Below, one piece after another: positions 7,048-27,462 of a stretch of DNA of 33,994 nucleotides. Numbering within the stretch: the first letter of the stretch is position 1; the number at the start of each line of letters is the position of its first letter. This DNA is from a virus (Duplodnaviria; Heunggongvirae; Uroviricota; Caudoviricetes). Made by a program: the position numbers and the translations under genes. The stretch lies in IMG/VR virus record IMGVR_UViG_2585427621_000012, one strand, 5' to 3'. The notes under the pieces were generated by a model. That model was not told the DNA's origin. It ran no database searches and worked only from the letters and a program-made list of their open reading frames with translations.

Positions 7048-8238
7048 TTAATTGCTGTTAACCGAGGTGACCAGATTTGCCAGGTATTTATCGGTGATAC
7101 GCTGGCGCAGGGTCAGGTTTTCAAGAGGAGGTACCGGTGTATAGTCGTAGTCGATATACAGTTTTCCGGCCTTGAGGGTTTCCGCATCGCTGGATTCTTC
7201 GCTGAACCAGCAGGTCGCATCCACGATATAGCCGTTTGTTTTCAGCTCACGGAATTTGGCATTGATGCCGTCAACGATGTCGCGAATCAGCGTTGCGGTG
7301 ATGGGCTTGTCCACCGCCCACATGTGCGCCTCAGCCATCGTGTCGGCCAGCACCTGCGCGGTGCGGGTGTAGTTTTCAAAGAGGAACAGCGGGTCATCAG
7401 AGCAGGTACGGTTACCCCAGAAGCGGAAACCGTCGCGGCGAATCAGCGTAGTGACGCCTGACTCGTTAAGCAGGTCAGCATCGGTGCCGGACTCCTGCAA
7501 ATCCCAGAATACAGATGCGCTGATGCCGTTAACACCGTTTACCCCGACGTTGGACAGCGTTTTATGCCAGCCCTGCTCCTGGTCGATTTTCGCGCGCAGA
7601 CCCAGCGCACGGGCGGTGGCATACGCGGTGGCGGTGGTGCTGCTGACCGTATCCCATGCGAGGAAATCCAGCCAGATGACCATCAGCTCACGCTGGCTGA
7701 AATTCTGGCGGTAGGCTTTCACCTCGGAAATGGTTTTACAGCCCCATGCGCTGATATACCCGAAAGCGCGCAGCTTCTGACAGACTGATGCCAGTGCAAC
7801 AGCCACCTCTTTGGTGTCCAGTCCCGGCACGCCGAGAATACGCGGTTTAACACCGGTTACCGACTCTGCCGCCAGCAGGGCTTTCAGTCCGGTATACTGA
7901 CCGTTTTCGTCAGTGGTGCCGATGATATTGGAAACGGTCTGCGCGAGTTTCGTTTCTTCGTCGTCGCCGGTGCCGTCTTCAACACGCACGACAACGGTAA
8001 CCGGTTTTGACTGGTCAGCGATGGCCTGCAACGATGCCGCCAGCGTGCCTTTTTTACCGGCCTTTGCAATTGCGCTCTGCACATTGGTAATCAGCACAGG
8101 TTTATTGAGGGGGAAGGTTTCCGCATCCGCATCGCTGGCCGTGCAGACCATGCCGACAATGGCGGTGGATACGGTGGAAATGACGCGGGTGCCGTCGTTA
8201 ATCTCCAGCACCTGCACGCCGTGATGATAATCACTCAT
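7048..8238 (-). CDS. FI: Contractile tail sheath protein gpFI
   Basis: 396-aa ORF, P2 FI size and position. Confidence 0.9.
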   Translation of the reverse strand: MSDYHHGVQVLEINDGTRVISTVSTAIVGMVCTASDADAETFPLNKPVLITNVQSAIAKAGKKGTLAASLQAIADQSKPVTVVVRVEDGTGDDEETKLAQTVSNIIGTTDENGQYTGLKALLAAESVTGVKPRILGVPGLDTKEVAVALASVCQKLRAFGYISAWGCKTISEVKAYRQNFSQRELMVIWLDFLAWDTVSSTTATAYATARALGLRAKIDQEQGWHKTLSNVGVNGVNGISASVFWDLQESGTDADLLNESGVTTLIRRDGFRFWGNRTCSDDPLFLFENYTRTAQVLADTMAEAHMWAVDKPITATLIRDIVDGINAKFRELKTNGYIVDATCWFSEESSDAETLKAGKLYIDYDYTPVPPLENLTLRQRITDKYLANLVTSVNSN

Positions 8239-8296: not shown

Positions 8297-8890
8297 CTAT
8301 TTGTCCCGGTTGGCTAAGGGATGACACAATTTATTCTTTGTCGCTGATGAGGGGAATTTTTTATAGAGCGTGGACAGGCCAATATCAAAAATCAGCGCCA
8401 CACGTTGACGAGATTCCCCCGCAGCCAGCAACCGTCCGACCTGCTCCCACTCACTCGTGGTGAGTTTCGGTCGTCTGCCACCAATACGACCTTTGGCTCT
8501 GGCCGCTTCCAGTCCGGCGCGTGTCCGCTCGACAATGAGTTCTCGCTCCATTTCTGCCAGGGCCCCCATCACATGAAAGAAAAAGCGCCCCATCGGCGTG
8601 CTGGTATCAATAGCATCCGTCAGGCTGCGAAAATTAACGCCGCGTTCGCGCAGTTCCTCAACCAGAATGACCAGATGCCGCATACTACGCCCCAGCCTAT
8701 CCAGCTTCCAGACTACCAGAGTGTCACCTGCTGATAATGTTCTGAGCAGTTTTTTCAGTCCCGGTCGGTCGGACTTCGTGCCGCTGATTTTATCCTCAAA
8801 ATCAGCTCACATCCTGCACACTCCAGCGCATTACGCTGCAATTCCGTGTTCTGGTCATTTGTTGACACGCGTACATAGCCAATAAGCATG
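8297..8890 (-). pseudogene. Serine DNA invertase (Gin/Hin/Pin/Cin family), frameshifted as sequenced
   Basis: N-terminus MLIGYVRVSTNDQNTELQRNALECAGCE (8890 downwards) and C-terminal 128-aa ORF (...VVWKLDRLGRSMRHLV...GRIGGRRPKLT...) are in different frames; one missing base in a T-run (plus-strand A-run 8788-8791) relative to the expected ...ELIFEDKISGTK... reading. Confidence 0.7.
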
Positions 8891-8916
8891 AGCATCTCCC
8901 TGAATAAAAACCGGAG

Positions 8917-9450
8917 ATGATGCCAGTTACCCGTTATTTCTGCATTTTCATAAACGTTGGTTTGGGAGAAGGTTCGGCATTACCCGTTGGTGTGCCTGTT
9001 CCGTGGCCTTCAGCCACTCCGCCGACAGGCTGGCTGAAATGCAACGGGGCGGCTTTTTCTGCTGAAGAATACCCGGAACTGGCAAAGGTTTACCCGACAA
9101 ATAAATTGCCTGATTTACGTGGTGAGTTTATTCGTGGCTGGGATGACGGACGTGGAGTGGATAACGGAAGGGGATTATTGACGCTTCAGGACGGTGCGAT
9201 TGTCAGTCATAACCACTATTGGGGAATCTGGACTTCACGAACTAACGACCAGACTCTGGAAAGTTTTACAGGCACCACGATTTTAAAACAAATCACGCCC
9301 CTGTCTCCGGCCATTAACTTCGATAATTACCCAATTCCCAACCCGGCTATTACAGAGGGTGGTGTTGTTGCGGCAACGACTAAACCTGCAGGTGCGAATG
9401 AAACACGCCCACGAAATGTCGCTTTTAACTATATTGTGAGGGCTGCATAA
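8917..9450 (+). CDS. Alternative tail-fibre C-terminal cassette (Sv'-like), silent in this orientation
   Basis: Conserved tail-fibre C-terminal motifs (LPVGVPVPWPSATPPTGW..., LPDLRGEFIRGWDDGRGVD); no upstream constant part on this strand; the first 28 nt lie outside the invertible segment and are probably not coding. Confidence 0.6.
   Translation: MMPVTRYFCIFINVGLGEGSALPVGVPVPWPSATPPTGWLKCNGAAFSAEEYPELAKVYPTNKLPDLRGEFIRGWDDGRGVDNGRGLLTLQDGAIVSHNHYWGIWTSRTNDQTLESFTGTTILKQITPLSPAINFDNYPIPNPAITEGGVVAATTKPAGANETRPRNVAFNYIVRAA
8945..8970. repeat. Invertase crossover site, left (26 bp, hix/gix-like)
   Basis: TTTTCATAAACGTTGGTTTGGGAGAA; its reverse complement matches 10877-10902 at 20 of 26 positions, including an identical 15-bp block TTCTCCCAAACCAAC/G. 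Confidence 0.65.
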
Positions 9451-10052
9451 TGAATAACGCAGAATTAAACAGTGAATTAATTGCCACTATGGCAGGAGAA
9501 ATTACTGTTTATAACTTTGATGTCATGAGTCGGGAATATATTTCAGCTTCAACTGAATATCTTGCTATTGGTGTCGGCATTCCGGCATATTCCTGTTTAG
9601 ATGCCCCAGGCGCATACAAAGCTGGTTATGCAATCTGCCGTTCTGCAGATTTTAACTCATGGGAATATGTGCCAGACCATCGCGGTGAAATCGTCTTTAG
9701 CACCGAAACAGGAGAATCAAAAGAAATCACCGCTCCGGGTGATTACCCTGATAATACAACCACTATCGCCCCGTTAACGCCATACGATAAATGGGATGGT
9801 GAGAAATGGGTGACGGATACCGAAGCACAGCATAGCGCCGCAGTAGAAGCGGCAGAAACACAACGCCAGTCGCTGATTGATACTGCAATGGCTTCCATTA
9901 GTCTGATTCAGCTGAAATTACAGGCCGGACGGAAGCTGACGCAGGCAGAAACCAACCGACTTAACACGGTGCTGGATTACATTGACGCGGTGACGGCAAC
10001 AGATACCAGCACCGCGCCGGATGTCATCTGGCCTGAACTGCCGGAGGCGTAG
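9450..10052 (+). CDS. Tail fibre assembly protein, alternative copy (U'-like)
   Basis: 200-aa ORF with the conserved Tfa C-terminus (...LDYIDAVTATDTSTAPDVIWPELPEA); start overlaps the stop of the preceding cassette (TAATG). Confidence 0.75.
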   Translation: MNNAELNSELIATMAGEITVYNFDVMSREYISASTEYLAIGVGIPAYSCLDAPGAYKAGYAICRSADFNSWEYVPDHRGEIVFSTETGESKEITAPGDYPDNTTTIAPLTPYDKWDGEKWVTDTEAQHSAAVEAAETQRQSLIDTAMASISLIQLKLQAGRKLTQAETNRLNTVLDYIDAVTATDTSTAPDVIWPELPEA

Positions 10053-10496
10053 GCCATTCAATATCTGGCGCACTGGCGGTATCGACCAGCTCCAGTGCGT
10101 CCAGATAATCCAGCCACAAATTATATTGTGCCAGTTCCTCACCTTTCAGACGACCAATAGCGGCTTTACCGGGCCATTGCTTACTGTTCATGTATTCGTT
10201 GGCCTGGTTAATTAGTAGCTGTCTTTCTGATTCAGTAATTTCAATAAGTTCTTCATGCGTGGGTGGAGGAATATCTGCCACGCAGGCAGCCCATCATCTC
10301 CGCATGCGGAATTACTGTGACGTTCAGTCCATTAATACACTGATAATATGTTGTTCGCTTCAGCCATAAACTCACTGATAATATTTTGATTTACTTCCTT
10401 AGCGTCTGATAAATCCCATCCCTCTGATTTATATTTATCAATCATATCCACAGGGAAAAAAGCATTATGCCTTGCGCTATAAACATATTCGTTCAT
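10024..10496 (-). pseudogene. Tail fibre assembly protein for the active orientation, apparently split across frames
   Basis: N-terminal 54-codon ORF (10332-10496, MNEYVYSARHNAFFPVDMIDKYKSEGWDL...) and a GTG-initiated 85-aa ORF (10024-10281, conserved Tfa C-terminus ...LDYLDALELVDTASAPDIEWPTPP) are in different frames, separated by stops. Confidence 0.5.
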
Positions 10497-10516
10497 ATAA
10501 ATCACCCTGAATAAAA

Positions 10517-11716
10517 TTACTCACCAACAGCCCACCAACTGTAATTCATCGATACCGTGTCGCTGGTTGATGACGTTCTGTAAGCAGAATTAAAGCCGGT
10601 TAACGTTGGGCCTTCTGCAGTCATCACGAACCCTCGCCCAGCGCCTAAAGGCGCACCGCCATCACCAGAATGAGTAAGCATGGCGCAGTCCGCTTTTTTG
10701 GGGAAAGGGATGCTGAATGTAATTCTCATTGTTTGCGTCGATAATGTCGGCGTAACCGCACCACGACCATATTGCAGGATTTTACCGTTGGGTAATTTCA
10801 TCCATCCATCACCACTGGCAAAAGAGGCCATGTCCGGTATCTGATTTTCCCCTGTCCCCACATCCCGTTTTGCCGCTTCTCCCAAACCAAGGTATGCGAG
10901 AAGACCGGCAACATCCTTTCCACTCAAATGAGTCAGCGTCTCATCCAGTGGCTGCTTACCTGACAGCGCATTGTTAATGGTGGTGCTGAATTTCGGGTCA
11001 TTGTTAATGGCCGCGGCAATTTCTTTCAGTGTGTCCAGCGTGTCTGGCGCGCCGTTAATCAGAGCGGTAATAGCGGTCTGAACAAACTCAGTGGTCGCAA
11101 TCCGCGTGGTGTTATTTCCTGCGGCAGGCGTTGGCGCTTTTGGTTCTCCGGTAAATGTCGGATTATGTTTCTGCGCATACTGGGTATGAGGATCCTGTGC
11201 GGCAATGTGGTTTCTCATCTGGTCATCCACATACAGCCTTAATTCCAGGACTTTATCATCCACGTATTTACGGGTCGCCAGTACCACCGACGGGTCGATT
11301 TTCAGCGTGATGGCTTCGGTATTCGTGACAACCAGAATCATGCGGATAGTCTGGGTACGACCGCTGCCTTCCTGTAACTGCGGTTTGTACGTTTCCGGGC
11401 AGTTCGCCACCGCAATGAGTACGCCTTCATCATCATAAAGCCCAATCTCACGGATCCAGAATCCGCCCTCGTTCTCAGGGATGATTTGCTCCGCAATAAT
11501 CTGGCTCTGGTTGTTCGGGTCAACACTCAGAAGATTCAGCGGCGCGATGCGTTTCTGGTTAATAAGTTTTGTCTGTGCCGGGTCAGGTGTCGGCAAGACA
11601 CCATTTGCATCACCAACGGCCATTTGCGTCAGATTCAGCTTACTGCCGAGCATCGTCGCGTTAGCCAGCCGTGCCGCGCCCTGATTAGTCAGAATGGCGT
11701 AGTATTTCACTGTCAT
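10517..11716 (-). CDS. H: Tail fibre protein (gpH-like), active orientation
   Basis: 399-aa ORF; N-terminal about 250 aa resemble P2 gpH (...GGFWIREIGLYDDEGVLIAVAN..., ...NDPKFSTTINNALSGKQP...); C-terminal part differs and begins at the crossover site (..YLGLGEA..). Confidence 0.85.
   Translation of the reverse strand: MTVKYYAILTNQGAARLANATMLGSKLNLTQMAVGDANGVLPTPDPAQTKLINQKRIAPLNLLSVDPNNQSQIIAEQIIPENEGGFWIREIGLYDDEGVLIAVANCPETYKPQLQEGSGRTQTIRMILVVTNTEAITLKIDPSVVLATRKYVDDKVLELRLYVDDQMRNHIAAQDPHTQYAQKHNPTFTGEPKAPTPAAGNNTTRIATTEFVQTAITALINGAPDTLDTLKEIAAAINNDPKFSTTINNALSGKQPLDETLTHLSGKDVAGLLAYLGLGEAAKRDVGTGENQIPDMASFASGDGWMKLPNGKILQYGRGAVTPTLSTQTMRITFSIPFPKKADCAMLTHSGDGGAPLGAGRGFVMTAEGPTLTGFNSAYRTSSTSDTVSMNYSWWAVGE
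10877..10902. repeat. Invertase crossover site, right (26 bp), inside the tail-fibre gene
   Basis: TTCTCCCAAACCAAGGTATGCGAGAA; imperfect internal dyad (TTCTCCCAAACC / GGTATGCGAGAA) around a central AA; encodes YLGLGE at about residue 270 of H. Confidence 0.65.
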
Positions 11717-20649: not shown

Positions 20650-22422
20650 ATGACCATCACCACAGACACCACTCTTTTACACGACCCGCGTCGTCAGGCG
20701 GCGCTGCTGTACTGGCAGGGATTTTCCGTGCCGCAGATTGCCGCCATGTTGCAGATGAAACGCCCGACGGTGCAGAGCTGGAAACAGCGCGACGGCTGGG
20801 ACAGCGTTGCCCCCATCAGCCGTGTCGAAATGAGTCTGGAAGCGCGGCTGACCCAGCTCATCATCAAACCGCAGAAAACCGGCGGTGACTTCAAGGAAAT
20901 TGACCTGCTCGGACGCCAGATTGAACGACTGGCACGGGTAAACCGCTACAGCCAGACCGGCAACGAGGCAGACCTTAATCCGAACATCGCTAACCGCAAC
21001 AAAGGCGGGCGGCGCAAACCGAAAAAGAATTTTTTCAGTGACGAGGCTATCGAAAAGCTGGAGCAGATTTTCTTTGAGCAGTCTTTCGAATATCAGTTGC
21101 ACTGGTATCGCGCCGGGCTTGAGCACCGCATCCGCGATATCCTGAAATCCCGCCAGATTGGCGCGACGTTTTATTTTTCCCGCGAGGCGCTGCTGCGCGC
21201 CCTGAAAACCGGTCATAACCAGATTTTTCTGTCGGCCAGTAAAACGCAGGCGTATGTGTTCCGCGAATACATCATCGCCTTTGCCCGGCTGGTTGACGTT
21301 GACCTGACCGGTGACCCGATTGTCCTGGGCAATAACAGCGCAAAACTGATTTTTCTCGGCACCAACTCCAACACCGCGCAGAGCCATAACGGCGACCTGT
21401 ACGTCGACGAGATTTTCTGGATACCGAATTTTCAGGTACTGCGTAAGGTGGCATCAGGTATGGCCTCACAGAGTCACCTGCGCTCGACCTATTTCTCCAC
21501 CCCGTCCACGCTGGCGCACGACGCCTACCCGTTCTGGTCGGGTGAACTGTTCAACCGGGGACGCGCCAGCGCCGCCGAACGCGTGGAAATCGACGTCAGT
21601 CATAACGCTCTTGCCGGTGGGCTTCTCTGTGCGGACGGTCAGTGGCGGCAGATTGTCACCATTGAGGACGCCCTGAAAGGTGGCTGCACGCTGTTCGACA
21701 TTGAGCAGCTTAAACGCGAAAACAGCGCCGACGATTTTAAAAACCTGTTCATGTGTGAATTTGTTGACGACAAGGCGTCGGTGTTCCCGTTCGAGGAGCT
21801 GCAACGCTGCATGGTCGACACGCTGGAAGAATGGGAAGACTATGCGCCGTTTGCCGCGAATCCGTTCGGCTCCCGCCCGGTCTGGATTGGTTACGACCCG
21901 TCACACCGTGGCGACAGTGCCGGATGCGTGGTGCTGGCACCGCCGGTGGTGGCCGGTGGCAAATTCAGAATACTTGAGCGTCACCAGTGGAAAGGCATGG
22001 ACTTTGCCACCCAGGCTGAATCCATCCGCAAACTCACCGAAAAATACAACGTCGAATACATCGGAATTGATGCCACCGGCCTCGGTGTCGGCGTGTTCCT
22101 GCTCGTTCGCTCGTTCTATCCCGCCGCACGCGATATCCGCTACACGCCGGAAATGAAAACCGCAATGGTGCTCAAGGCAAAAGACGTTATTCGCCGTGGC
22201 TGTCTGGAATATGACGTCAGCGCCACCGACATCACCAGCTCGTTTATGGCTATCCGCAAGACCATGACCAGCAGCGGACGCAGCGCCACCTATGAGGCCA
22301 GCCGCAGCGAGGAAGCCAGCCACGCCGACCTCGCCTGGGCGACCATGCACGCCCTGTTAAATGAGCCACTCACCGCCGGTATCAGCACCCCGCTGACATC
22401 CACCATTCTGGAGTTTTACTGA
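20650..22422 (+). CDS. P: Terminase large (ATPase) subunit gpP
   Basis: 590-aa product starting MTITTDTTLLHD...; divergent from O, as in P2. Confidence 0.9.
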   Translation: MTITTDTTLLHDPRRQAALLYWQGFSVPQIAAMLQMKRPTVQSWKQRDGWDSVAPISRVEMSLEARLTQLIIKPQKTGGDFKEIDLLGRQIERLARVNRYSQTGNEADLNPNIANRNKGGRRKPKKNFFSDEAIEKLEQIFFEQSFEYQLHWYRAGLEHRIRDILKSRQIGATFYFSREALLRALKTGHNQIFLSASKTQAYVFREYIIAFARLVDVDLTGDPIVLGNNSAKLIFLGTNSNTAQSHNGDLYVDEIFWIPNFQVLRKVASGMASQSHLRSTYFSTPSTLAHDAYPFWSGELFNRGRASAAERVEIDVSHNALAGGLLCADGQWRQIVTIEDALKGGCTLFDIEQLKRENSADDFKNLFMCEFVDDKASVFPFEELQRCMVDTLEEWEDYAPFAANPFGSRPVWIGYDPSHRGDSAGCVVLAPPVVAGGKFRILERHQWKGMDFATQAESIRKLTEKYNVEYIGIDATGLGVGVFLLVRSFYPAARDIRYTPEMKTAMVLKAKDVIRRGCLEYDVSATDITSSFMAIRKTMTSSGRSATYEASRSEEASHADLAWATMHALLNEPLTAGISTPLTSTILEFY

Positions 22423-23456
22423 TGAGCAAGAAAAAAGGGAAAACACCGCAACCTGCGGCAAAAAAAATGACCGCCAGCGCCCCGAAAATGGAGGCATTCA
22501 CCTTTGGTGAACCGGTGCCGGTACTCGACCGCCGTGACATTCTGGATTACGTCGAGTGCATCAGTAACGGCAGATGGTATGAGCCACCGGTCAGCTTTAC
22601 CGGTCTGGCAAAAAGCCTGCGTGCTGCCGTACATCACAGCTCACCGATTTACGTCAAACGTAATATTCTGGCTTCAACGTTTATTCCGCACCCGTGGCTT
22701 TCCCAGCAGGATTTCAGCCGCTTTGTGCTGGATTTTCTGGTGTTCGGTAATGCGTTTCTGGAAAAGCGTTACAGCACCACCGGTAAGGTCATCAGACTGG
22801 AAACCTCACCGGCAAAATATACCCGCCGTGGCGTGGAGGAGGATGTTTACTGGTGGGTGCCGTCCTTCAACGAGCCGACAGCCTTCGCGCCCGGCTCCGT
22901 GTTTCACCTGCTGGAGCCGGATATTAATCAGGAGCTGTACGGCCTGCCGGAATATCTCAGCGCCCTTAATTCTGCCTGGCTGAATGAGTCGGCCACGCTG
23001 TTCCGCCGCAAGTATTACGAAAACGGCGCTCATGCCGGATATATCATGTACGTCACCGATGCCGTGCAGGATCGCAACGATATCGAAATGCTTCGCGAAA
23101 ACATGGTCAAGTCGAAAGGCCGCAACAACTTTAAAAATCTGTTTCTCTATGCCCCGCAGGGGAAAGCCGACGGCATTAAAATTATCCCGCTCAGTGAAGT
23201 GGCAACGAAGGACGATTTTTTTAATATCAAAAAAGCCAGCGCCGCTGACCTGCTGGACGCGCACCGCATCCCCTTTCAGTTGATGGGCGGCAAGCCGGAG
23301 AACGTCGGGTCGCTGGGTGATATTGAGAAAGTGGCAAAGGTCTTTGTCCGCAATGAGCTTATCCCGCTACAGGACAGGATCCGCGAGATAAACGGCTGGC
23401 TCGGTCAGGAGGTCATCCGCTTTAAAAACTACTCACTGGACACTGACAACGGCTGA
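22422..23456 (+). CDS. Q: Portal protein gpQ
   Basis: 344-aa ORF, P2 Q size; start overlaps the P stop. Confidence 0.9.
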   Translation: MSKKKGKTPQPAAKKMTASAPKMEAFTFGEPVPVLDRRDILDYVECISNGRWYEPPVSFTGLAKSLRAAVHHSSPIYVKRNILASTFIPHPWLSQQDFSRFVLDFLVFGNAFLEKRYSTTGKVIRLETSPAKYTRRGVEEDVYWWVPSFNEPTAFAPGSVFHLLEPDINQELYGLPEYLSALNSAWLNESATLFRRKYYENGAHAGYIMYVTDAVQDRNDIEMLRENMVKSKGRNNFKNLFLYAPQGKADGIKIIPLSEVATKDDFFNIKKASAADLLDAHRIPFQLMGGKPENVGSLGDIEKVAKVFVRNELIPLQDRIREINGWLGQEVIRFKNYSLDTDNG

Positions 23457-23773: not shown

Positions 23774-25744
23774 TTAAAGGTCATCAATTAAACCTAAAGG
23801 CAAACCGTCCTCACCAACCGAGCTATAATGAGCGATAATATTCGAAAGTTCACCAGTAGAAAACGAATTAGGCAAATCATTATCAACTAATATAATCTGG
23901 CACGGAACATTTTTTCTTTCTGCTTTTTGAACTGTATTCAATAGTTGTTCATAAATATTTTGATACTTCATCGGATCTGACATTCCCTCAAGGTCATCCT
24001 CGAATGCAAGAGTTTCTTTTGAATATTTTTCCTTGGTCTGTTTCCCTAAATATTTGCCAACCGTATCAAATATCAAAAGTAAAGGATGGTTAACATTATG
24101 ATCTATTGCATAATCAAGAATAGACAAAAGATACCCAATAGAAGAAATAGTTCTCAAACCTCCGGATGTTATTTTAAAATATTCTTTTTCTCTTATAACA
24201 GGAATGTAATAGCTTTCAGAGATTTTTATCCCCGTTCTGTTTTTGATATTAATACCCTTCAAATACTGACTAAATCTATCACCCAAACCTTGTAAAATGC
24301 CCTCCATGCTAGGTGCGTTTTTCTTTAACGCCTCCAAGCGTTCAGTTAATGCTTCAATATCTTTTCTCAGTACCTGATACTTTTCAAGCAGTTCCTCTTG
24401 CTGGTTTCTAACCTTCAAATCTTTTACTAACTGCTCCCTAACCTTCTCATTTTTTGAGATCTCTTTAATATAAAAATCTCTCTGAGTCAAGAATGGTGTA
24501 ATCATTGACTGGCTTTCTTCGTCAATCAATTCTCTCAACTCGTCAAGTCGTTCATCTAATTCCTTTTTATAACCTGATTCTTTTTTTAATTTAAATGACA
24601 TTTCTGAGATCATGTCATTAATATTTCGTCTACGTCGACTAAGTGAATTCAACTCTTCATTAAGATCTTTTTCTGATGAAATTTCAAATGGAAAATCAGA
24701 ATCATCTATTTTAATGTGGCTATCACAGACTGGACAGGAAAATACTTCCTTATCCAATACACCAATGCGAGAATTTGCTGTTTTAATCGCTTTGAGTTTT
24801 TCAATATCATTATCATAGTCATTTTTTAACCGCGAATATTTATCAATCTTATCCTCAAGCGCAGTAATATTTAATATGCACTCTTTGTATTTAAGCGAAA
24901 TAAAATTGTGAGCATCTTTCAATTCTGTATACTGTATGGAATCCGCTTTCATATTTTTATCGAGAGCAGACAAACCTGCAACAAGTTCTTCTAAAACAAG
25001 ATCTATCCTATTAATCTCATCATCAATTGATTCAATCGTTTCATAGTCTGTATCGCGAAGAAATTCAGATATTATCTGATACTTCCTATTTAATTCCGTT
25101 ACTAAACTACTTTTTGCAGATATTTCACCTTGGAGTCTGGCGATGCTTTCATCCAACACATTGAACATGTATTTAAAAACTTCTTTCGTAAATGCGTAGC
25201 GGGACCAATCACCCAATCGCAAGAAAGATTTACTACCAATATCATCCTGACTTACATAAACAAATTTATATATATTTCTAAAACTTAACCTGCGCATCTG
25301 TGAATGAGCTTTAGAAGGAGACACCTTAATTTCAATCTTTGGAAAATTAAGACTATCAAGTAAAAACTCCGAAAAAACACCATCAACATTTGATAATGGG
25401 CTATAATTAGGAGCGTATTTTTTCGGAAAATGTTTATGTAAATCATCAAACTTACAACGATAAACTTCTATTGCTTTTTTATGATCATAGATATCTCTTA
25501 CGATTGTGAATACAGTATCATTGATCACTACTTCAAGAGCAGCATAGTTTACTGATGTTTTTATTTCATCTGCTAAATCTATAGAGCTAGCACCTAAAAG
25601 ATAATTAATAAACTCCAGAATGCTTGACTTACCTGTGTCAGAGTCTCCGTAGATAACATTGAGACCTTTATAAAAAGTAGTGACGTAGTTTTTACGAACG
25701 CCAACAAGAATCAAACTATTGATATTGAGATATGATTTCATCAT
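23774..25744 (-). CDS. Rad50/SbcC/SMC-like ABC ATPase with coiled coil and CxxC zinc hook (candidate defence ATPase, LmuB-like)
   Basis: 656 aa; Walker A GDSDTGKSS near the N-terminus; long low-complexity charged, helical middle with CPVCD at about residue 336; C-terminal signature-like TSGG, Walker B LLLIFD, and ILVDND; AT-rich codon usage. Confidence 0.7.
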   Translation of the reverse strand: MMKSYLNINSLILVGVRKNYVTTFYKGLNVIYGDSDTGKSSILEFINYLLGASSIDLADEIKTSVNYAALEVVINDTVFTIVRDIYDHKKAIEVYRCKFDDLHKHFPKKYAPNYSPLSNVDGVFSEFLLDSLNFPKIEIKVSPSKAHSQMRRLSFRNIYKFVYVSQDDIGSKSFLRLGDWSRYAFTKEVFKYMFNVLDESIARLQGEISAKSSLVTELNRKYQIISEFLRDTDYETIESIDDEINRIDLVLEELVAGLSALDKNMKADSIQYTELKDAHNFISLKYKECILNITALEDKIDKYSRLKNDYDNDIEKLKAIKTANSRIGVLDKEVFSCPVCDSHIKIDDSDFPFEISSEKDLNEELNSLSRRRRNINDMISEMSFKLKKESGYKKELDERLDELRELIDEESQSMITPFLTQRDFYIKEISKNEKVREQLVKDLKVRNQQEELLEKYQVLRKDIEALTERLEALKKNAPSMEGILQGLGDRFSQYLKGINIKNRTGIKISESYYIPVIREKEYFKITSGGLRTISSIGYLLSILDYAIDHNVNHPLLLIFDTVGKYLGKQTKEKYSKETLAFEDDLEGMSDPMKYQNIYEQLLNTVQKAERKNVPCQIILVDNDLPNSFSTGELSNIIAHYSSVGEDGLPLGLIDDL

Positions 25745-25853
25745 TTCTCCTTGAAGACTTGATTTATAACAGAGTTTAACTTAGAGGTAGGCAATGCTTG
25801 TAGCGGTAACAATGCTTCGGATAGTCGTTTTATTTCTTTAAAATATCCATCAG

Positions 25854-26252
25854 TCAATGAGCTAGCAAATTCCTTACCTTTTTCAGATAAAAATAATTTA
25901 ACACTCTCATTATTTTTTTCTCAGCTGAGAGCAATCCCCGCAATGACATAATTTTTATAAGATATTTCACTTTGGAATTGTCGAATAAGATATCTACATT
26001 TGTTGAAAAACTCTTTATTGTATAAGTTAACTGGGACTCGACACAAGCAGGCTTTTTCCCCGAAACTGTAAGAGCATAATCAATTTTTGATGGGTTTTTT
26101 ATCAGATACATAAAAATTTGTATTTTATTAATATCTAATGATAACACTCCTTTTTTGCTATGAGATAATATAGATATAGCAATGGCAAGCATAGCAAAAT
26201 TCAAGCTATACTCTTCATCAAGAGGAATATACGGCAAGTTATTTTTCTTCAT
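25854..26252 (-). CDS. Small middle-component protein of the three-gene module; as sequenced 132 aa, possibly about 170 aa if a frameshift at an A7 run is resolved
   Basis: ORF between the hydrolase and ATPase genes; a second open frame (25741-25912, ...SVKLFLSEKGKEFASSLTDGYFKEIKRLSEALLPLQ...) continues to a TGA overlapping the ATPase ATG. Confidence 0.55.
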   Translation of the reverse strand: MKKNNLPYIPLDEEYSLNFAMLAIAISILSHSKKGVLSLDINKIQIFMYLIKNPSKIDYALTVSGKKPACVESQLTYTIKSFSTNVDILFDNSKVKYLIKIMSLRGLLSAEKKIMRVLNYFYLKKVRNLLAH

Positions 26253-27462
26253 GATTACCTCGCCGTAATTGCTCCAAAGTTTCTACGCTGGTTTCAGATG
26301 ACCAGACAATATCCCTGTCATTTTTGTTAGCCAGTTGATGCAACATTCCTTTCTTATGTATCGTTTCTAAACTTTTTATAAGAGAATCTAACGACGACTT
26401 ATCCTCTTGGGCTATTCGTCTATGAACAGCAGCAATAAATTTATCTGGGGAAATTGAATTCGCGATATATTGCTCATACTCTTCCTGGTAAATCTCCCTT
26501 ATTTTAGAATACAAATGACCAAGTAGTTTCCTATCGTAATCACTCGTAAAAATATTTCTCGCAAGCTCAGCATTATAATAATATTCCTTTGCATGCATAG
26601 CGATATCCTGATGTATATCTGCGACAATCATTTTTAAGACGAAATACTCATTATCATATTGTTTCTCATCAGAAAAACGCTCAACACATATCTTCTTGGG
26701 TGCTTCTAAATTTATCTGCTGAATAAATTGCTTTACCGCAACAAACACTGTAGACGAGCTGTTTTCGGGCTTGCAAATTGAGCTATGCCCTTCATTAACT
26801 GCAATTGAGTTATTTCGTTCACTATCCATCGGTAATGCGCTTTTTTTATCAACTATAGTGTCATGAGAACCATAAACATATCTAGTGATAGGAAGTTTTT
26901 TGCTACAATTTATCCAGCGCCTATTCAACGTATCGGTCGCTTCACTTAACAATCCAAGATCTACTAACTGAGCATTTGAAGATACCATTGAAGTTATATT
27001 CGCCAATTTAGCACCAAAGTGAGGGACTGCTAACGAAATGAATCCAATTATATTAGATTGTTCCTCATGCTCAACTTTTTTTAGAATTAGATTTTTTGAT
27101 ATTACCCCCCCCATACTATGGGCGATTATTATAATTCGAGAGTAATCACTTAGCGTTACCCTAATCTCAGTATACAATAACTCAGCTATTTCATCAGTTG
27201 GTAAATTTCTCTCTAACTTATTTTTCTTAGAGAAAATACGAGCCCATAATCCTGACGTTTTAGCATACGTTTGTGTAAATTTGGTGAAATAATTGAAACA
27301 TGCAATATCAAATACATTGCCAATGTCTTCATCTTCTGCTAATAGTTTTGGAAATGAAGTTTCTTTATTAAAGTTCCATGTTTCCAAACCACCATTTAAT
27401 CCATGTACAAATAGTATCAGGCTATCTTTTTTCTCGTGGCTTATCCATTCAACCATGCTCAT
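26239..27462 (-). CDS. Lipase-like alpha/beta-hydrolase (serine hydrolase) with C-terminal helical domain (candidate effector, LmuA-like)
   Basis: 407 aa; oxyanion-hole motif LILFVHGLNG, nucleophile elbow AHSMGG (AxSxG), downstream GSHDT (Asp) and NEGHSS (His) consistent with a Ser-Asp-His triad; about 170-aa helical C-terminus; AT-rich. Confidence 0.7.
   Translation of the reverse strand: MSMVEWISHEKKDSLILFVHGLNGGLETWNFNKETSFPKLLAEDEDIGNVFDIACFNYFTKFTQTYAKTSGLWARIFSKKNKLERNLPTDEIAELLYTEIRVTLSDYSRIIIIAHSMGGVISKNLILKKVEHEEQSNIIGFISLAVPHFGAKLANITSMVSSNAQLVDLGLLSEATDTLNRRWINCSKKLPITRYVYGSHDTIVDKKSALPMDSERNNSIAVNEGHSSICKPENSSSTVFVAVKQFIQQINLEAPKKICVERFSDEKQYDNEYFVLKMIVADIHQDIAMHAKEYYYNAELARNIFTSDYDRKLLGHLYSKIREIYQEEYEQYIANSISPDKFIAAVHRRIAQEDKSSLDSLIKSLETIHKKGMLHQLANKNDRDIVWSSETSVETLEQLRRGNHEEK

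What the first reader, a model, noticed from the sequence alone, without database searches (positions are those of the whole stretch)
25741..26252. Middle gene is interrupted at an A7 homopolymer, with the downstream frame ending exactly on the ATPase start
The 132-aa ORF stops shortly after a run of seven A (minus strand; plus-strand T-run 25913-25919). The -1 frame from that run stays open for 59 codons with a plausible helical sequence and ends in a TGA overlapping the ATPase ATG, which is the signature of translational coupling. One extra A would give a continuous protein of about 170-180 aa. This is either a homopolymer sequencing error, a real inactivating mutation, or slippage-prone expression control.
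Basis: seen in the sequence. Interest (0 to 1): 0.5.

Follow-up and report, generated by a model that had tools for sequence, protein, structure and literature searches.

The report
One-base deletion breaks Lamassu lmuC
The small middle gene of a known three-gene anti-phage system (Lamassu) carried by a P2-like prophage of E. coli O157:H7 has lost one A from a run of eight, which is most likely an assembly error or otherwise an ordinary knock-out mutation, not a regulatory device.

Summary
The 132-aa ORF (25854-26252, minus strand) reads through an A7 run (plus-strand T-run 25913-25919). The other frame stays open for 59 codons and ends in an ATGA overlap with the ATPase start. Adding one A gives a 170-aa protein.

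The gene is lmuC (Pfam MC4) of a type II Lamassu / ABC-3C operon: lmuA (hydrolase + CTD8), lmuC, lmuB (SMC-like ATPase). The operon sits in the gpQ-gpA defence hotspot of a P2-like prophage.

A8 is the normal in-frame state:
- 94 of 95 complete E. coli genomes with this gene have exactly A8.
- Homologues at 43-86% identity are almost all single 168-171-aa ORFs (a few are 175-184 aa or fragments), and the five loci read abut lmuB.
- The run is not conserved in more distant homologues.

Programmed frameshifting is therefore not supported.

This window also carries three other private one-base deletions relative to otherwise identical O157:H7 prophages, one of which breaks the invertase gene. I therefore favour an assembly indel error here (about 0.6).

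The same A7 allele is nevertheless real in some isolates and arose at least twice, or moved by recombination. A true lmuC null allele is the main rival (about 0.35).

In passing: REL606 carries a different lmuC frameshift, and that allele was the one used in the only published test of this system.

The parts
26239..27462 (-). lmuA: Lamassu effector. N-terminal DUF676/PGAP1-type alpha/beta-hydrolase plus C-terminal ABC-3C CTD8 adaptor domain (407 aa). Its last 14 nt overlap the lmuC start.
   Evidence: Pfam CTD8 E=1.7e-35 (residues 265-389) and DUF676 E=4e-9. PADLOC LmuA PDLC03851 E=3.5e-108 over the full length. RefSeq name 'ABC-three component system protein'.
25914..26252 (-). lmuC (MC4) codons 1-113. 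This is the authentic N-terminal part, read in the frame of the 132-aa ORF.
   Evidence: Identical to residues 1-113 of the 170-aa WP_000739990.1 of TW14359, SS52 and others. Pfam MC4 and PADLOC LmuC hits.
25913..25919 (-). The lesion: an A7 run on the coding strand (T7 on plus). It is A8 in 94 of 95 complete E. coli genomes.
   Evidence: It is the only difference from TW14359 across window 10876-32343.
25854..25912 (-). Out-of-frame tail of the 132-aa ORF (IMRVLNYFYLKKVRNLLAH plus stop). Not homologous to anything in the family.
   Evidence: Alignment A1.
25741..25920 (-). lmuC codons about 112-170 in the shifted frame (59 codons plus TGA). The stop overlaps the lmuB ATG as ATGA.
   Evidence: Nearly invariant family positions L122, G126, Y137, K158, L159, N164 and F167 lie here. 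The AF2 model places the second wing strand and four helices here.
23774..25744 (-). lmuB: SMC/Rad50-like ABC ATPase with coiled coil (656 aa). It has its own AAGGAG Shine-Dalgarno sequence 6-11 nt upstream of the first ATG.
   Evidence: PADLOC LmuB PDLC03862 E=1.5e-235 over the full length. Weak Pfam SMC_N/AAA_23 at the N-terminus. Junction sequence.
22422..23456 (+). P2 gpQ-type portal gene. One border of the P2 defence hotspot.
   Evidence: Hotspot defined between gpA and gpQ in PMC9122126.
27552..29876 (-). P2 gpA-type replication endonuclease gene. The other border of the hotspot. The AT-rich island (GC 0.32-0.39) lies between the two borders.

Best explanation
The middle gene is lmuC (ABC-3C 'middle component 4') of a three-gene type II Lamassu anti-phage operon, lmuA-lmuC-lmuB, in the gpQ-gpA hotspot of a P2-like prophage of O157:H7 type.

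Its normal form is a single 170-codon ORF. That form contains an in-frame A8 tract (GAG AAA AAA AAT = E K K N), and its stop overlaps the lmuB start.

The window's sequence has one A fewer. I judge that this missing base is most likely an indel error of the assembly the window comes from, not a property of the organism. The real gene would then be intact, and the operon would make the usual LmuA1-LmuB2-LmuC1 complex.

Shown:
- the identity of the genes;
- the ancestral A8 state;
- the absence of any conserved frameshift device;
- the presence of other private one-base deletions in this window.

Inferred: that this particular missing A belongs to the same class of error.
For: 1. A8 is the norm. 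94 of 95 RefSeq complete E. coli genomes with this gene match the A8 version exactly over 81 bases. One (OkiPb01683) has A7.

2. The window's prophage is otherwise identical to O157:H7 TW14359, SS52 and CEC13004. Its private differences are four single-base deletions, all in runs, and two substitutions:
- 25919, T8 to T7;
- 8801, A5 to A4, which splits the Cin/Gin-type invertase into 46-aa and 128-aa pieces;
- 8274, T4 to T3;
- 32344, CC to C;
- substitutions at 7591 and 7670.
There are no insertions, and the first 2,284 bases (host flank plus prophage end) are identical. Four deletions against two substitutions is the signature of consensus indel error, not of natural divergence.

3. The 8801 and 32344 alleles occur in none of 529 and 753 complete genomes that carry those segments. 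The invertase N-terminal fragment and the sheath P190L variant are on record in no assembly of the large collection.

4. The per-run deletion frequency rises with run length: 1 of about 4,783 runs of 2, 1 of about 337 runs of 4, 1 of about 126 runs of 5. Extrapolating, about one hit among the four runs of 8 is what such an error process predicts.

5. Two other assemblies with the same A7 are clearly error-prone.
- JBDIFL01 has 10 homopolymer deletions in 20 kb.
- AKMA01 has a second A-run deletion that splits lmuB.
Against: The A7 allele is real in at least some isolates. A Logan assembly of SRR23021354 is identical to TW14359 over 20.4 kb (0 mismatches) except for this one base. All other 7- and 8-base runs in that stretch are correct.

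The exact 132-aa product is recorded on 48 contigs in 74 blocks of the collection.

The allele occurs on two operon haplotypes, with G or T at window 27105, and each haplotype also exists with A8.

In this window the three other 8-base runs and the ten other 7-base runs are correct. Homopolymer undercalling is therefore not pervasive here.

No reads are available, so the call for this window is probabilistic.
Confidence: 0.6

Rival explanations
1. Real loss-of-function mutation. Replication slippage shortened the A8 tract to A7 in this isolate. The product would be a 132-aa LmuC with 113 native residues and 19 junk residues. It would lack the second strand of the winged-helix wing and the four C-terminal helices. 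Translational coupling to lmuB would be lost, leaving a 109-nt untranslated gap. By analogy with V. cholerae Lamassu, where LmuC is the central subunit of LmuA1B2C1 and C-terminal residues are needed, the system would be inactive.
For: - The A7 allele is present in a clean assembly that is otherwise identical to the reference.
- It is present in several independent assemblies of a second haplotype from different sources: OkiPb01683, DRR667164, ERR11841926, ABZPAZ01 and CADFYG01. Two of these carry private SNPs.
- The four-gamete pattern implies at least two origins, or recombination.
- An A9 allele (114-aa product) also exists on 5 contigs.
- lmuC is independently broken by a TG duplication in REL606.
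- The AF2 model (pLDDT 80.8) places the break inside the wing hairpin, between E108-111 and E119-122.
- In Vc-Lamassu, the LmuC mutations L109A+F116A and K149A abolished defence (PMC12663957).
Against: The allele is rare: 1 of 95 complete genomes, and 48 contigs against at least 1,000 (capped) for the 170-aa form. The prior for any one O157 isolate is therefore a few percent at most.

This window shows an independent signature of assembly indel errors.

The mapping of essential Vc LmuC residues onto MC4 is only by analogy. Vc LmuC is family MC3, has 16% identity to this protein, and matches at TM 0.52.
Confidence: 0.35
2. Functional slippage. Either full-length LmuC is made from the A7 allele by programmed -1 ribosomal frameshifting or transcriptional slippage, or the tract is an evolved phase-variation switch that turns a costly abortive-infection system on and off.
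For: - Tract-length variants A7, A8 and A9 all exist in nature, and A7 arose more than once or recombined.
- Some short-read assemblies end exactly at the tract (partial proteins P0012 and P0015). This could reflect within-sample heterogeneity.
- In the A7 allele the codon after the run is AUA. From my own knowledge, this is a rare, slowly decoded codon in E. coli, and Lys-tRNA slips on A-runs. Some leaky restoration is therefore conceivable. RNA polymerase slippage on A/T runs is also established knowledge, not tested here.
Against: - No two-frame architecture exists in any homologue. Nearly all proteins at 43-86% identity are single ORFs of 168-171 aa.
- The tract is A7 in frame (KKS) in Enterobacter, A8 in frame in Scandinavium, and absent at 68% and 46% identity.
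- 94 of 95 complete genomes are 'ON', not a balanced mix.
- The zero frame GAG AAA AAA ATA has no in-phase X_XXY_YYZ heptamer.
- From my own knowledge, 8 nt is short for a contingency locus in a mismatch-repair-proficient enterobacterium.
- The gene is AT-rich and Lys-rich, and it holds several other A6-A8 runs in homologues at non-homologous positions. Such runs are a by-product of composition.
Confidence: 0.04

Closest known systems
Type II Lamassu (LmuA-LmuC-LmuB), also called ABC-3C; best studied as Vibrio cholerae DdmABC / Lamassu Vc-Cap4 (PMC12663957; bioRxiv 10.1101/2025.06.23.660979; PDB 9uxh)
   Same: - Same three-gene order, with a short middle gene immediately before the SMC-like ATPase.
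- LmuB, LmuA-CTD and LmuC models all hit at full length.
- The repaired LmuC is 170 aa, like Vc LmuC. Its AF2 model aligns over all 170 columns to chain 9uxh_D, with TM 0.52 both ways and probability 0.96.
   Different: - The effector is a DUF676/PGAP1-type alpha/beta-hydrolase, not a Cap4 nuclease.
- LmuC belongs to Pfam MC4, whereas Vc LmuC is MC3. Identity is 16%, and the Foldseek E-value of 0.16 is not significant.
- No sequence-level PDB match was found for LmuC or LmuB.
- Anti-phage activity of this hydrolase variant has not been shown.
P2 hotspot system 'Hydrolase + SMC' of E. coli REL606 (pFR106, Table S2B of Rousset et al. 2022, PMC9122126)
   Same: Same locus (between gpA and gpQ of a P2-like prophage) and same three genes. 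It differs at 97 of about 3,690 operon positions from the window's operon.
   Different: REL606's lmuC is broken at a different place, by a TG duplication after codon 50. The published 'Protein 2' is the 50-aa fragment. The system is listed among tested but not validated systems.
RefSeq WP_000739988.1 (132 aa) versus WP_000739990.1 (170 aa), both named 'ABC-three component system middle component 4'
   Same: The window's 132-aa ORF is exactly WP_000739988.1, as annotated in OkiPb01683. The repaired protein is exactly WP_000739990.1.
   Different: Nothing. The truncated allele is already in public databases, annotated as if it were a normal protein.
Programmed -1 frameshifting or transcriptional slippage at A-runs (E. 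coli dnaX A_AAA_AAG; IS-element A6-7G sites), recalled from my own knowledge
   Same: A run of A in a Lys-Lys context, with an open -1 frame downstream.
   Different: No conservation of the site or of a two-frame organisation. No in-phase heptamer. The in-frame allele is the norm.

Membership tests
Type II Lamassu / ABC-3C | LmuB: SMC/Rad50-like ABC ATPase with a long coiled-coil insert | tested here: met
   PADLOC LmuB PDLC03862 E=1.5e-235, residues 2-656 against profile 3-641 of 643. N-terminal SMC_N/AAA_23 P-loop hits and SMC-like coiled-coil hits are below curated cut-offs.
Type II Lamassu / ABC-3C | LmuA: variable N-terminal effector domain fused to an ABC-3C C-terminal adaptor domain | tested here: met
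   Pfam CTD8 E=1.7e-35 (above cut-off) at residues 265-389, and DUF676 E=4e-9 at residues 10-156. PADLOC LmuA E=3.5e-108.
Type II Lamassu / ABC-3C | LmuC: short middle component of about 170 aa encoded between lmuA and lmuB | tested here: inconclusive
   The repaired 170-aa sequence meets it: Pfam MC4 E=5e-27 over profile 1-132 of 133, PADLOC LmuC E=1.5e-52, and TM 0.52 to PDB 9uxh_D. As written in the window, the gene is split by the A7 frameshift, so only residues 1-113 are encoded in frame.
Type II Lamassu / ABC-3C | Operon with overlapping or abutting ORFs in the order lmuA-lmuC-lmuB | tested here: met
   There is a 14-nt lmuA/lmuC overlap in the window. An ATGA, TGATG or TAATG lmuC/lmuB junction is present in TW14359 and in homologues L019, L021, L023 and L025. 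In the window the junction is reached only in the shifted frame.
Type II Lamassu / ABC-3C | Protection against phage or plasmid | not testable with these tools
   The only published test of this hydrolase variant used the REL606 allele with a frameshifted lmuC, and the system was not validated.
Programmed ribosomal frameshift / transcriptional slippage site | Slippery site and two-frame gene organisation conserved among homologues | tested here: not met
   All near-full-length homologues are single ORFs, nearly all of 168-171 aa. The run is A7 in frame, A8 in frame, or absent in the homologues read. 94 of 95 genomes carry in-frame A8.
Programmed ribosomal frameshift / transcriptional slippage site | X_XXY_YYZ heptamer in phase with the zero frame | tested here: not met
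   The zero frame reads GAG AAA AAA ATA. Neither G_AAA_AAA nor A_AAA_ATA fits the pattern.
Programmed ribosomal frameshift / transcriptional slippage site | Downstream stimulatory RNA structure or upstream internal Shine-Dalgarno sequence | not tested
   Not folded. I judged this unnecessary once conservation had failed.
Phase-variable contingency locus | Tract length varies among isolates, with both ON and OFF states common | tested here: not met
   Length variants exist: A7 on 48 contigs and A9 on 5 contigs. But ON (A8) is 94 of 95 in complete genomes and at least 1,000 contigs.
Phase-variable contingency locus | Tract conserved by selection in related loci | tested here: not met
   The tract is absent at the homologous position in the 68% and 46% identity homologues.

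The most novel reading that the evidence does not exclude
The A8 tract in lmuC may act as a natural mutational hot spot through which P2-borne Lamassu is repeatedly switched off, and possibly back on, in E. coli populations. A7 and A9 null alleles would then arise independently in several lineages. This could happen because the abortive-infection system is costly, or because it blocks a useful plasmid or phage. Low-level transcriptional or ribosomal slippage on the run could give leaky rescue. Together with the independent TG-duplication allele of REL606, this would make lmuC the preferred target for silencing Lamassu.
Probability: 0.07. Interest if true: 0.5.

Novelty: already known. Interest (0 to 1): 0.15.

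Why it matters
As a biological finding it matters little. The gene family, the operon, its location and even the truncated allele are already in public databases. The lesion is a one-base homopolymer contraction with no sign of programmed function.

Three practical points follow.

1. The 132-aa form (WP_000739988.1) is annotated as a normal protein although it is a frameshift fragment. Defence-system censuses that require an intact LmuC could miscall such loci.

2. The only published functional test of this P2-hotspot hydrolase-Lamassu used the REL606 allele, whose lmuC is independently frameshifted. Its negative result says nothing about the intact system found in O157:H7, and re-testing that system is worthwhile.

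3. Recurrent lmuC lesions (A7 at least twice or by recombination, A9, TG duplication) contrast mildly with the report that defence pseudogenes are rare in P2 hotspots (PMC13586616).

Tried and rejected
- **Programmed frameshift.** Rejected on conservation, on the phase of the run and on allele frequencies.

- **Window source is OkiPb01683**, the only RefSeq complete genome with A7. Rejected. The operon region is 99.6% identical, but the prophage is only about 98.3% identical.

- **Single origin of A7.** Rejected by the four-gamete pattern with the G/T site at 27105, unless recombination occurred.

- **Identifying the source assembly, or independent support for the window's other private variants, by exact-protein look-ups.**
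  - The 128-aa invertase fragment returned only contig-end partials or unrelated variants.
  - The 44-aa and 46-aa N-terminal fragments and the P190L sheath protein are not on record.
  - This gave no information on whether reads support those variants.

- **Phage collection.** A search with the whole operon found no match.

- **Sequence searches of the PDB.** The LmuC profile and LmuB found nothing. Only the fold comparison found the solved LmuC, and only at a modest score.

- **NCBIfam.** It has no model for the middle component.

- **Strain SS17.** I recalled that GenBank accession AIF94438.1, one of the accessions of the 132-aa protein, might belong to this O157:H7 strain. I looked for its RefSeq record and it is not in the collection. 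The lead stays unverified and is not used.

- **Mutator-strain explanation for the four deletions.** Considered less likely. A CC to C deletion and a T4 to T3 deletion are unusual for mismatch-repair loss, and there are only two substitutions. It cannot be excluded.
Full report
**1. The observation**

Reading the minus strand of 25400-26700, the ORF list and all frames confirm every element of the finding.
- A 132-aa ORF runs from 26252 to 25854.
- It contains GAG AAA AAA ATA, so the run of seven A is the plus-strand T-run 25913-25919.
- The other frame opens at a TGA immediately 5' of the run. It stays open for exactly 59 codons (25920-25744) and stops at TGA 25741-25743.
- That stop overlaps the first ATG of the 656-aa ATPase ORF (23774-25744) as ATGA.
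- Adding one A gives a single 170-aa ORF.
- With the operon's composition a random codon is a stop with p = 0.082. A 59-codon open stretch therefore has p of about 0.006, before counting the exact junction and the homology described below.

**2. What the genes are**

The three co-directional genes form a type II Lamassu / ABC-3C operon.
- The 407-aa protein has a DUF676/PGAP1-type alpha/beta-hydrolase domain and the ABC-3C C-terminal domain CTD8 (E = 1.7e-35). It matches a PADLOC LmuA model over its full length (E = 3.5e-108).
- The 656-aa protein matches a PADLOC LmuB model end to end (E = 1.5e-235).
- The repaired middle protein matches Pfam MC4 over profile positions 1-132 of 133 (E = 5e-27). 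It also matches a PADLOC LmuC model over positions 2-166 of 168 (E = 1.5e-52).
- RefSeq already names these proteins 'ABC-three component system protein', 'ABC-three component system middle component 4' and 'SMC family protein / AAA family ATPase'.

The operon is an AT-rich island (GC 0.32-0.39 against about 0.55 around it). It lies between the portal gene gpQ and the replication gene gpA of a P2-like prophage inserted between yegQ/trhP and yegR. This is the P2 defence hotspot defined by Rousset et al. (PMC9122126).

**3. The ancestral state is an in-frame A8**

An 801-base query around the run finds the locus in 95 of 5,426 complete E. coli genomes.
- An 80-base query with A7 is matched exactly by only one genome, OkiPb01683.
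- The 81-base A8 version is matched exactly by the other 94.
- In those genomes the gene is annotated as a 513-nt, 170-aa CDS that overlaps or abuts the ATPase CDS (by 4 nt in TW14359, SS52, CEC13004 and TR01).
- Homologues at 43-86% identity from Enterobacter, Scandinavium, Yersinia, Rouxiella, Xenorhabdus, Erwinia, Proteus and Pectobacterium are nearly all 168-171 aa and cover 96-100% of the repaired query.
- In the alignment, nearly invariant positions (L122, G126, Y137, K158, L159, N164, F167) lie downstream of the break. The 19-residue tail of the 132-aa form aligns with nothing.

At the DNA level the run is not conserved:
- GAG AAA AAA AGC (A7, in frame, KKS) in an Enterobacter-type locus;
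- GAG AAA AAA AAC (A8, in frame) in Scandinavium;
- GTA AAA GAA AGT in a 68% identity homologue;
- no run at all at 46% identity.

Other A6-A8 runs occur at non-homologous positions in these Lys- and AT-rich genes. All of these loci keep a stop/start junction with lmuB (ATGA, TGATG or TAATG). There is also no conserved frameshift device. In addition, the zero frame of the window (GAG AAA AAA ATA) has no X_XXY_YYZ heptamer in phase.

**4. Is the missing A real in this window?**

The window is not from OkiPb01683 (98.3% identity over the prophage). It is an O157:H7-type prophage. Over 12.4 kb around the operon, dozens of O157:H7 complete genomes match with 12,400 bases for the window's 12,399.

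Base-by-base comparison with TW14359, SS52 and CEC13004 shows that, outside the invertible tail-fibre segment, the window's private differences are:
- four single-base deletions, all in runs;
  - 25919, T8 to T7;
  - 8801, A5 to A4;
  - 8274, T4 to T3;
  - 32344, CC to C;
- two substitutions: 7591 (synonymous) and 7670 (P190L in the tail sheath).

There are no insertions, and there is no difference in the first 2,284 bases (host flank plus prophage end).

The 8801 deletion splits the Cin/Gin-type invertase (197 aa in the references) into 46-aa and 128-aa ORFs.

None of 529 and 753 complete genomes carrying those segments shares the 8801 or 32344 allele. The invertase N-terminal fragment and the sheath variant are on record in no assembly of the large gene-position collection.

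Four deletions against two substitutions, with deletion frequency rising with run length, is what consensus indel error looks like. The observed frequencies are 1 of about 4,783 runs of 2, 1 of about 337 runs of 4 and 1 of about 126 runs of 5. Extrapolating that trend predicts roughly one error among the four 8-base runs of the reference state.

Two other assemblies carrying A7 are obviously error-prone. JBDIFL01 has ten homopolymer deletions in 20 kb. AKMA01 has a second A-run deletion that splits lmuB.

**5. The allele is also real elsewhere**

The Logan assembly of SRR23021354 is identical to TW14359 over 20.4 kb, with zero mismatches and every other long run correct, except for A8 to A7. 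It does not share the window's 32344 deletion.

The exact 132-aa protein is recorded on 48 contigs in 74 blocks of the collection. The 170-aa form is on at least 1,000 contigs, which is the cap.

Within the nearly invariant operon (0-3 SNPs in 3.7 kb), a G/T polymorphism at window 27105 combines with the run in all four ways:
- G + A8: TW14359 and others;
- G + A7: the window, SRR23021354 and AKMA01;
- T + A8: SCU-115;
- T + A7: OkiPb01683, DRR667164, ERR11841926, ABZPAZ01 and CADFYG01.

A7 therefore arose at least twice or moved by recombination. In the T background it is shared by several independent assemblies, two of which carry private SNPs, so it is inherited. An A9 allele (114-aa product) exists on 5 contigs.

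Weighing the two possibilities:
- The prior that a given O157-type isolate truly carries A7 is a few percent at most.
- The chance that an assembly with this error profile drops a base at an 8-base run is plausibly several-fold higher.
- I therefore put assembly error at about 0.6 and a real null allele at about 0.35. Only reads can settle it.

**6. Consequence if real**

An AlphaFold2 model of the repaired protein (20-sequence alignment, mean pLDDT 80.8, pTM 0.79) shows a helical bundle with a winged helix. The break after residue 113 falls in the loop between the two wing strands (E108-111 and E119-122). It removes the second strand and four C-terminal helices.

Against the PDB, the match with by far the best TM-score is chain D of 9uxh, 'type II Lamassu, LmuACB with DNA'. 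The figures are TM 0.52 in both directions, 170 aligned columns, probability 0.96 and 16% identity. The Foldseek E-value of 0.16 is not significant. The remaining matches are MarR-type winged-helix proteins at TM of about 0.25.

In the V. cholerae system, LmuC is the central globular subunit of LmuA1B2C1 and contacts both LmuB coiled coils, the LmuA CTD and DNA. The mutations L109A+F116A and K149A abolish defence (PMC12663957).

By analogy, a protein truncated at residue 113 should not assemble, and the system would be inactive. This is an inference, because Vc LmuC belongs to MC3 and this protein to MC4.

lmuB keeps its own AAGGAG Shine-Dalgarno sequence. It could still be translated, but without coupling and after a 109-nt untranslated gap.

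**7. Comparison with what is known, and novelty**

The system is a member of type II Lamassu / ABC-3C with a hydrolase effector, in the known P2 hotspot. The truncated product is already in RefSeq as WP_000739988.1. Nothing here is a new kind of element.

The frameshift is an ordinary homopolymer contraction, whether artefactual or mutational. The most novel reading not excluded is that the tract is a recurrent mutational off-switch for Lamassu, with leaky slippage. I give this about 0.07.

**8. A by-product worth recording**

REL606 carries the same system, at 97 differences in about 3.7 kb. Its lmuC is broken by a TG duplication after codon 50, relative to strain C (CP029371) and H1827/12.

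Rousset et al. cloned 'Hydrolase + SMC' from REL606 (pFR106, Table S2B, tested but not validated). The 'Protein 2' they list is the 50-aa fragment MKKNN...IFMYL*.

The only functional test of this Lamassu variant therefore used a lmuC-null allele.

Noticed in passing
L035 3202-3716 (NC_012967.1 2114673-2115187): E. coli B REL606 carries the same P2-hotspot Lamassu. Its lmuC is split into 50-aa and 121-aa pieces by a TG duplication (TATCTGTGATAAAAAA versus TATCTGATAAAAAA in strain C and H1827/12). Table S2B of Rousset et al. 2022 lists the 50-aa fragment as 'Protein 2' of pFR106 'Hydrolase + SMC'. The only published, negative test of this system therefore used a broken lmuC.
   Followed up: yes
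window 8801 (ORFs 8755-8895 and 8297-8683, minus strand): A private A5 to A4 deletion splits the Cin/Gin-type DNA invertase (197 aa in TW14359, SS52 and CEC13004) into 46-aa and 128-aa ORFs. None of 529 complete genomes with this segment shares it.
   Followed up: yes
window 8274 and 32344: Two further private one-base deletions, both intergenic: T4 to T3 and CC to C. The 32344 allele is absent from 753 complete genomes. All four private indels of the window are deletions in runs, which suggests an assembly with residual indel errors.
   Followed up: partly
window 7591 and 7670 (tail sheath gene 7048-8238, minus strand): Two private substitutions 80 bp apart. One is synonymous and the other gives P190L in the sheath protein. 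The exact 396-aa product is not on record in any assembly of the collection.
   Followed up: partly
window about 8954-10890: The invertible tail-fibre segment next to the invertase is in the opposite orientation or arrangement to TW14359, and in the same orientation as SS52 and CEC13004. Alignment breaks at about 10277-10358 mark the crossover site.
   Followed up: partly
window 25913-25919; proteins P0012 (113 aa, ends ...SAEKK) and P0015 (59 aa, starts KKNNES...): Several draft assemblies end exactly at the A-run, and many others end elsewhere inside lmuC. This could reflect low coverage of the AT-rich island or mixed A7/A8 reads. A 113-aa complete product would also be what an A6 allele encodes, so P0012 is ambiguous.
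   Followed up: no
window 27105-27112 (C8 on plus strand, G8 in lmuA): A second 8-base homopolymer lies in frame inside lmuA. It is G7T in the non-O157 haplotype and is shortened by two bases in the error-prone JBDIFL01 assembly. It is another site where frameshifts will be miscalled.
   Followed up: no
L024 535-3004 (KB976072.1): In a related Lamassu (LmuC 46% identical), lmuA is split by an IS element (transposase with rve domains) into a hydrolase part and a CTD8 part. This is another route by which these systems are inactivated.
   Followed up: no
L016 15777-16344 (ERR11841926 contig): A deletion derivative of the prophage. The gpO scaffold gene is cut to 44 aa and joined directly to ogr, removing the whole late region. 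The Lamassu operon (with A7) is retained.
   Followed up: no
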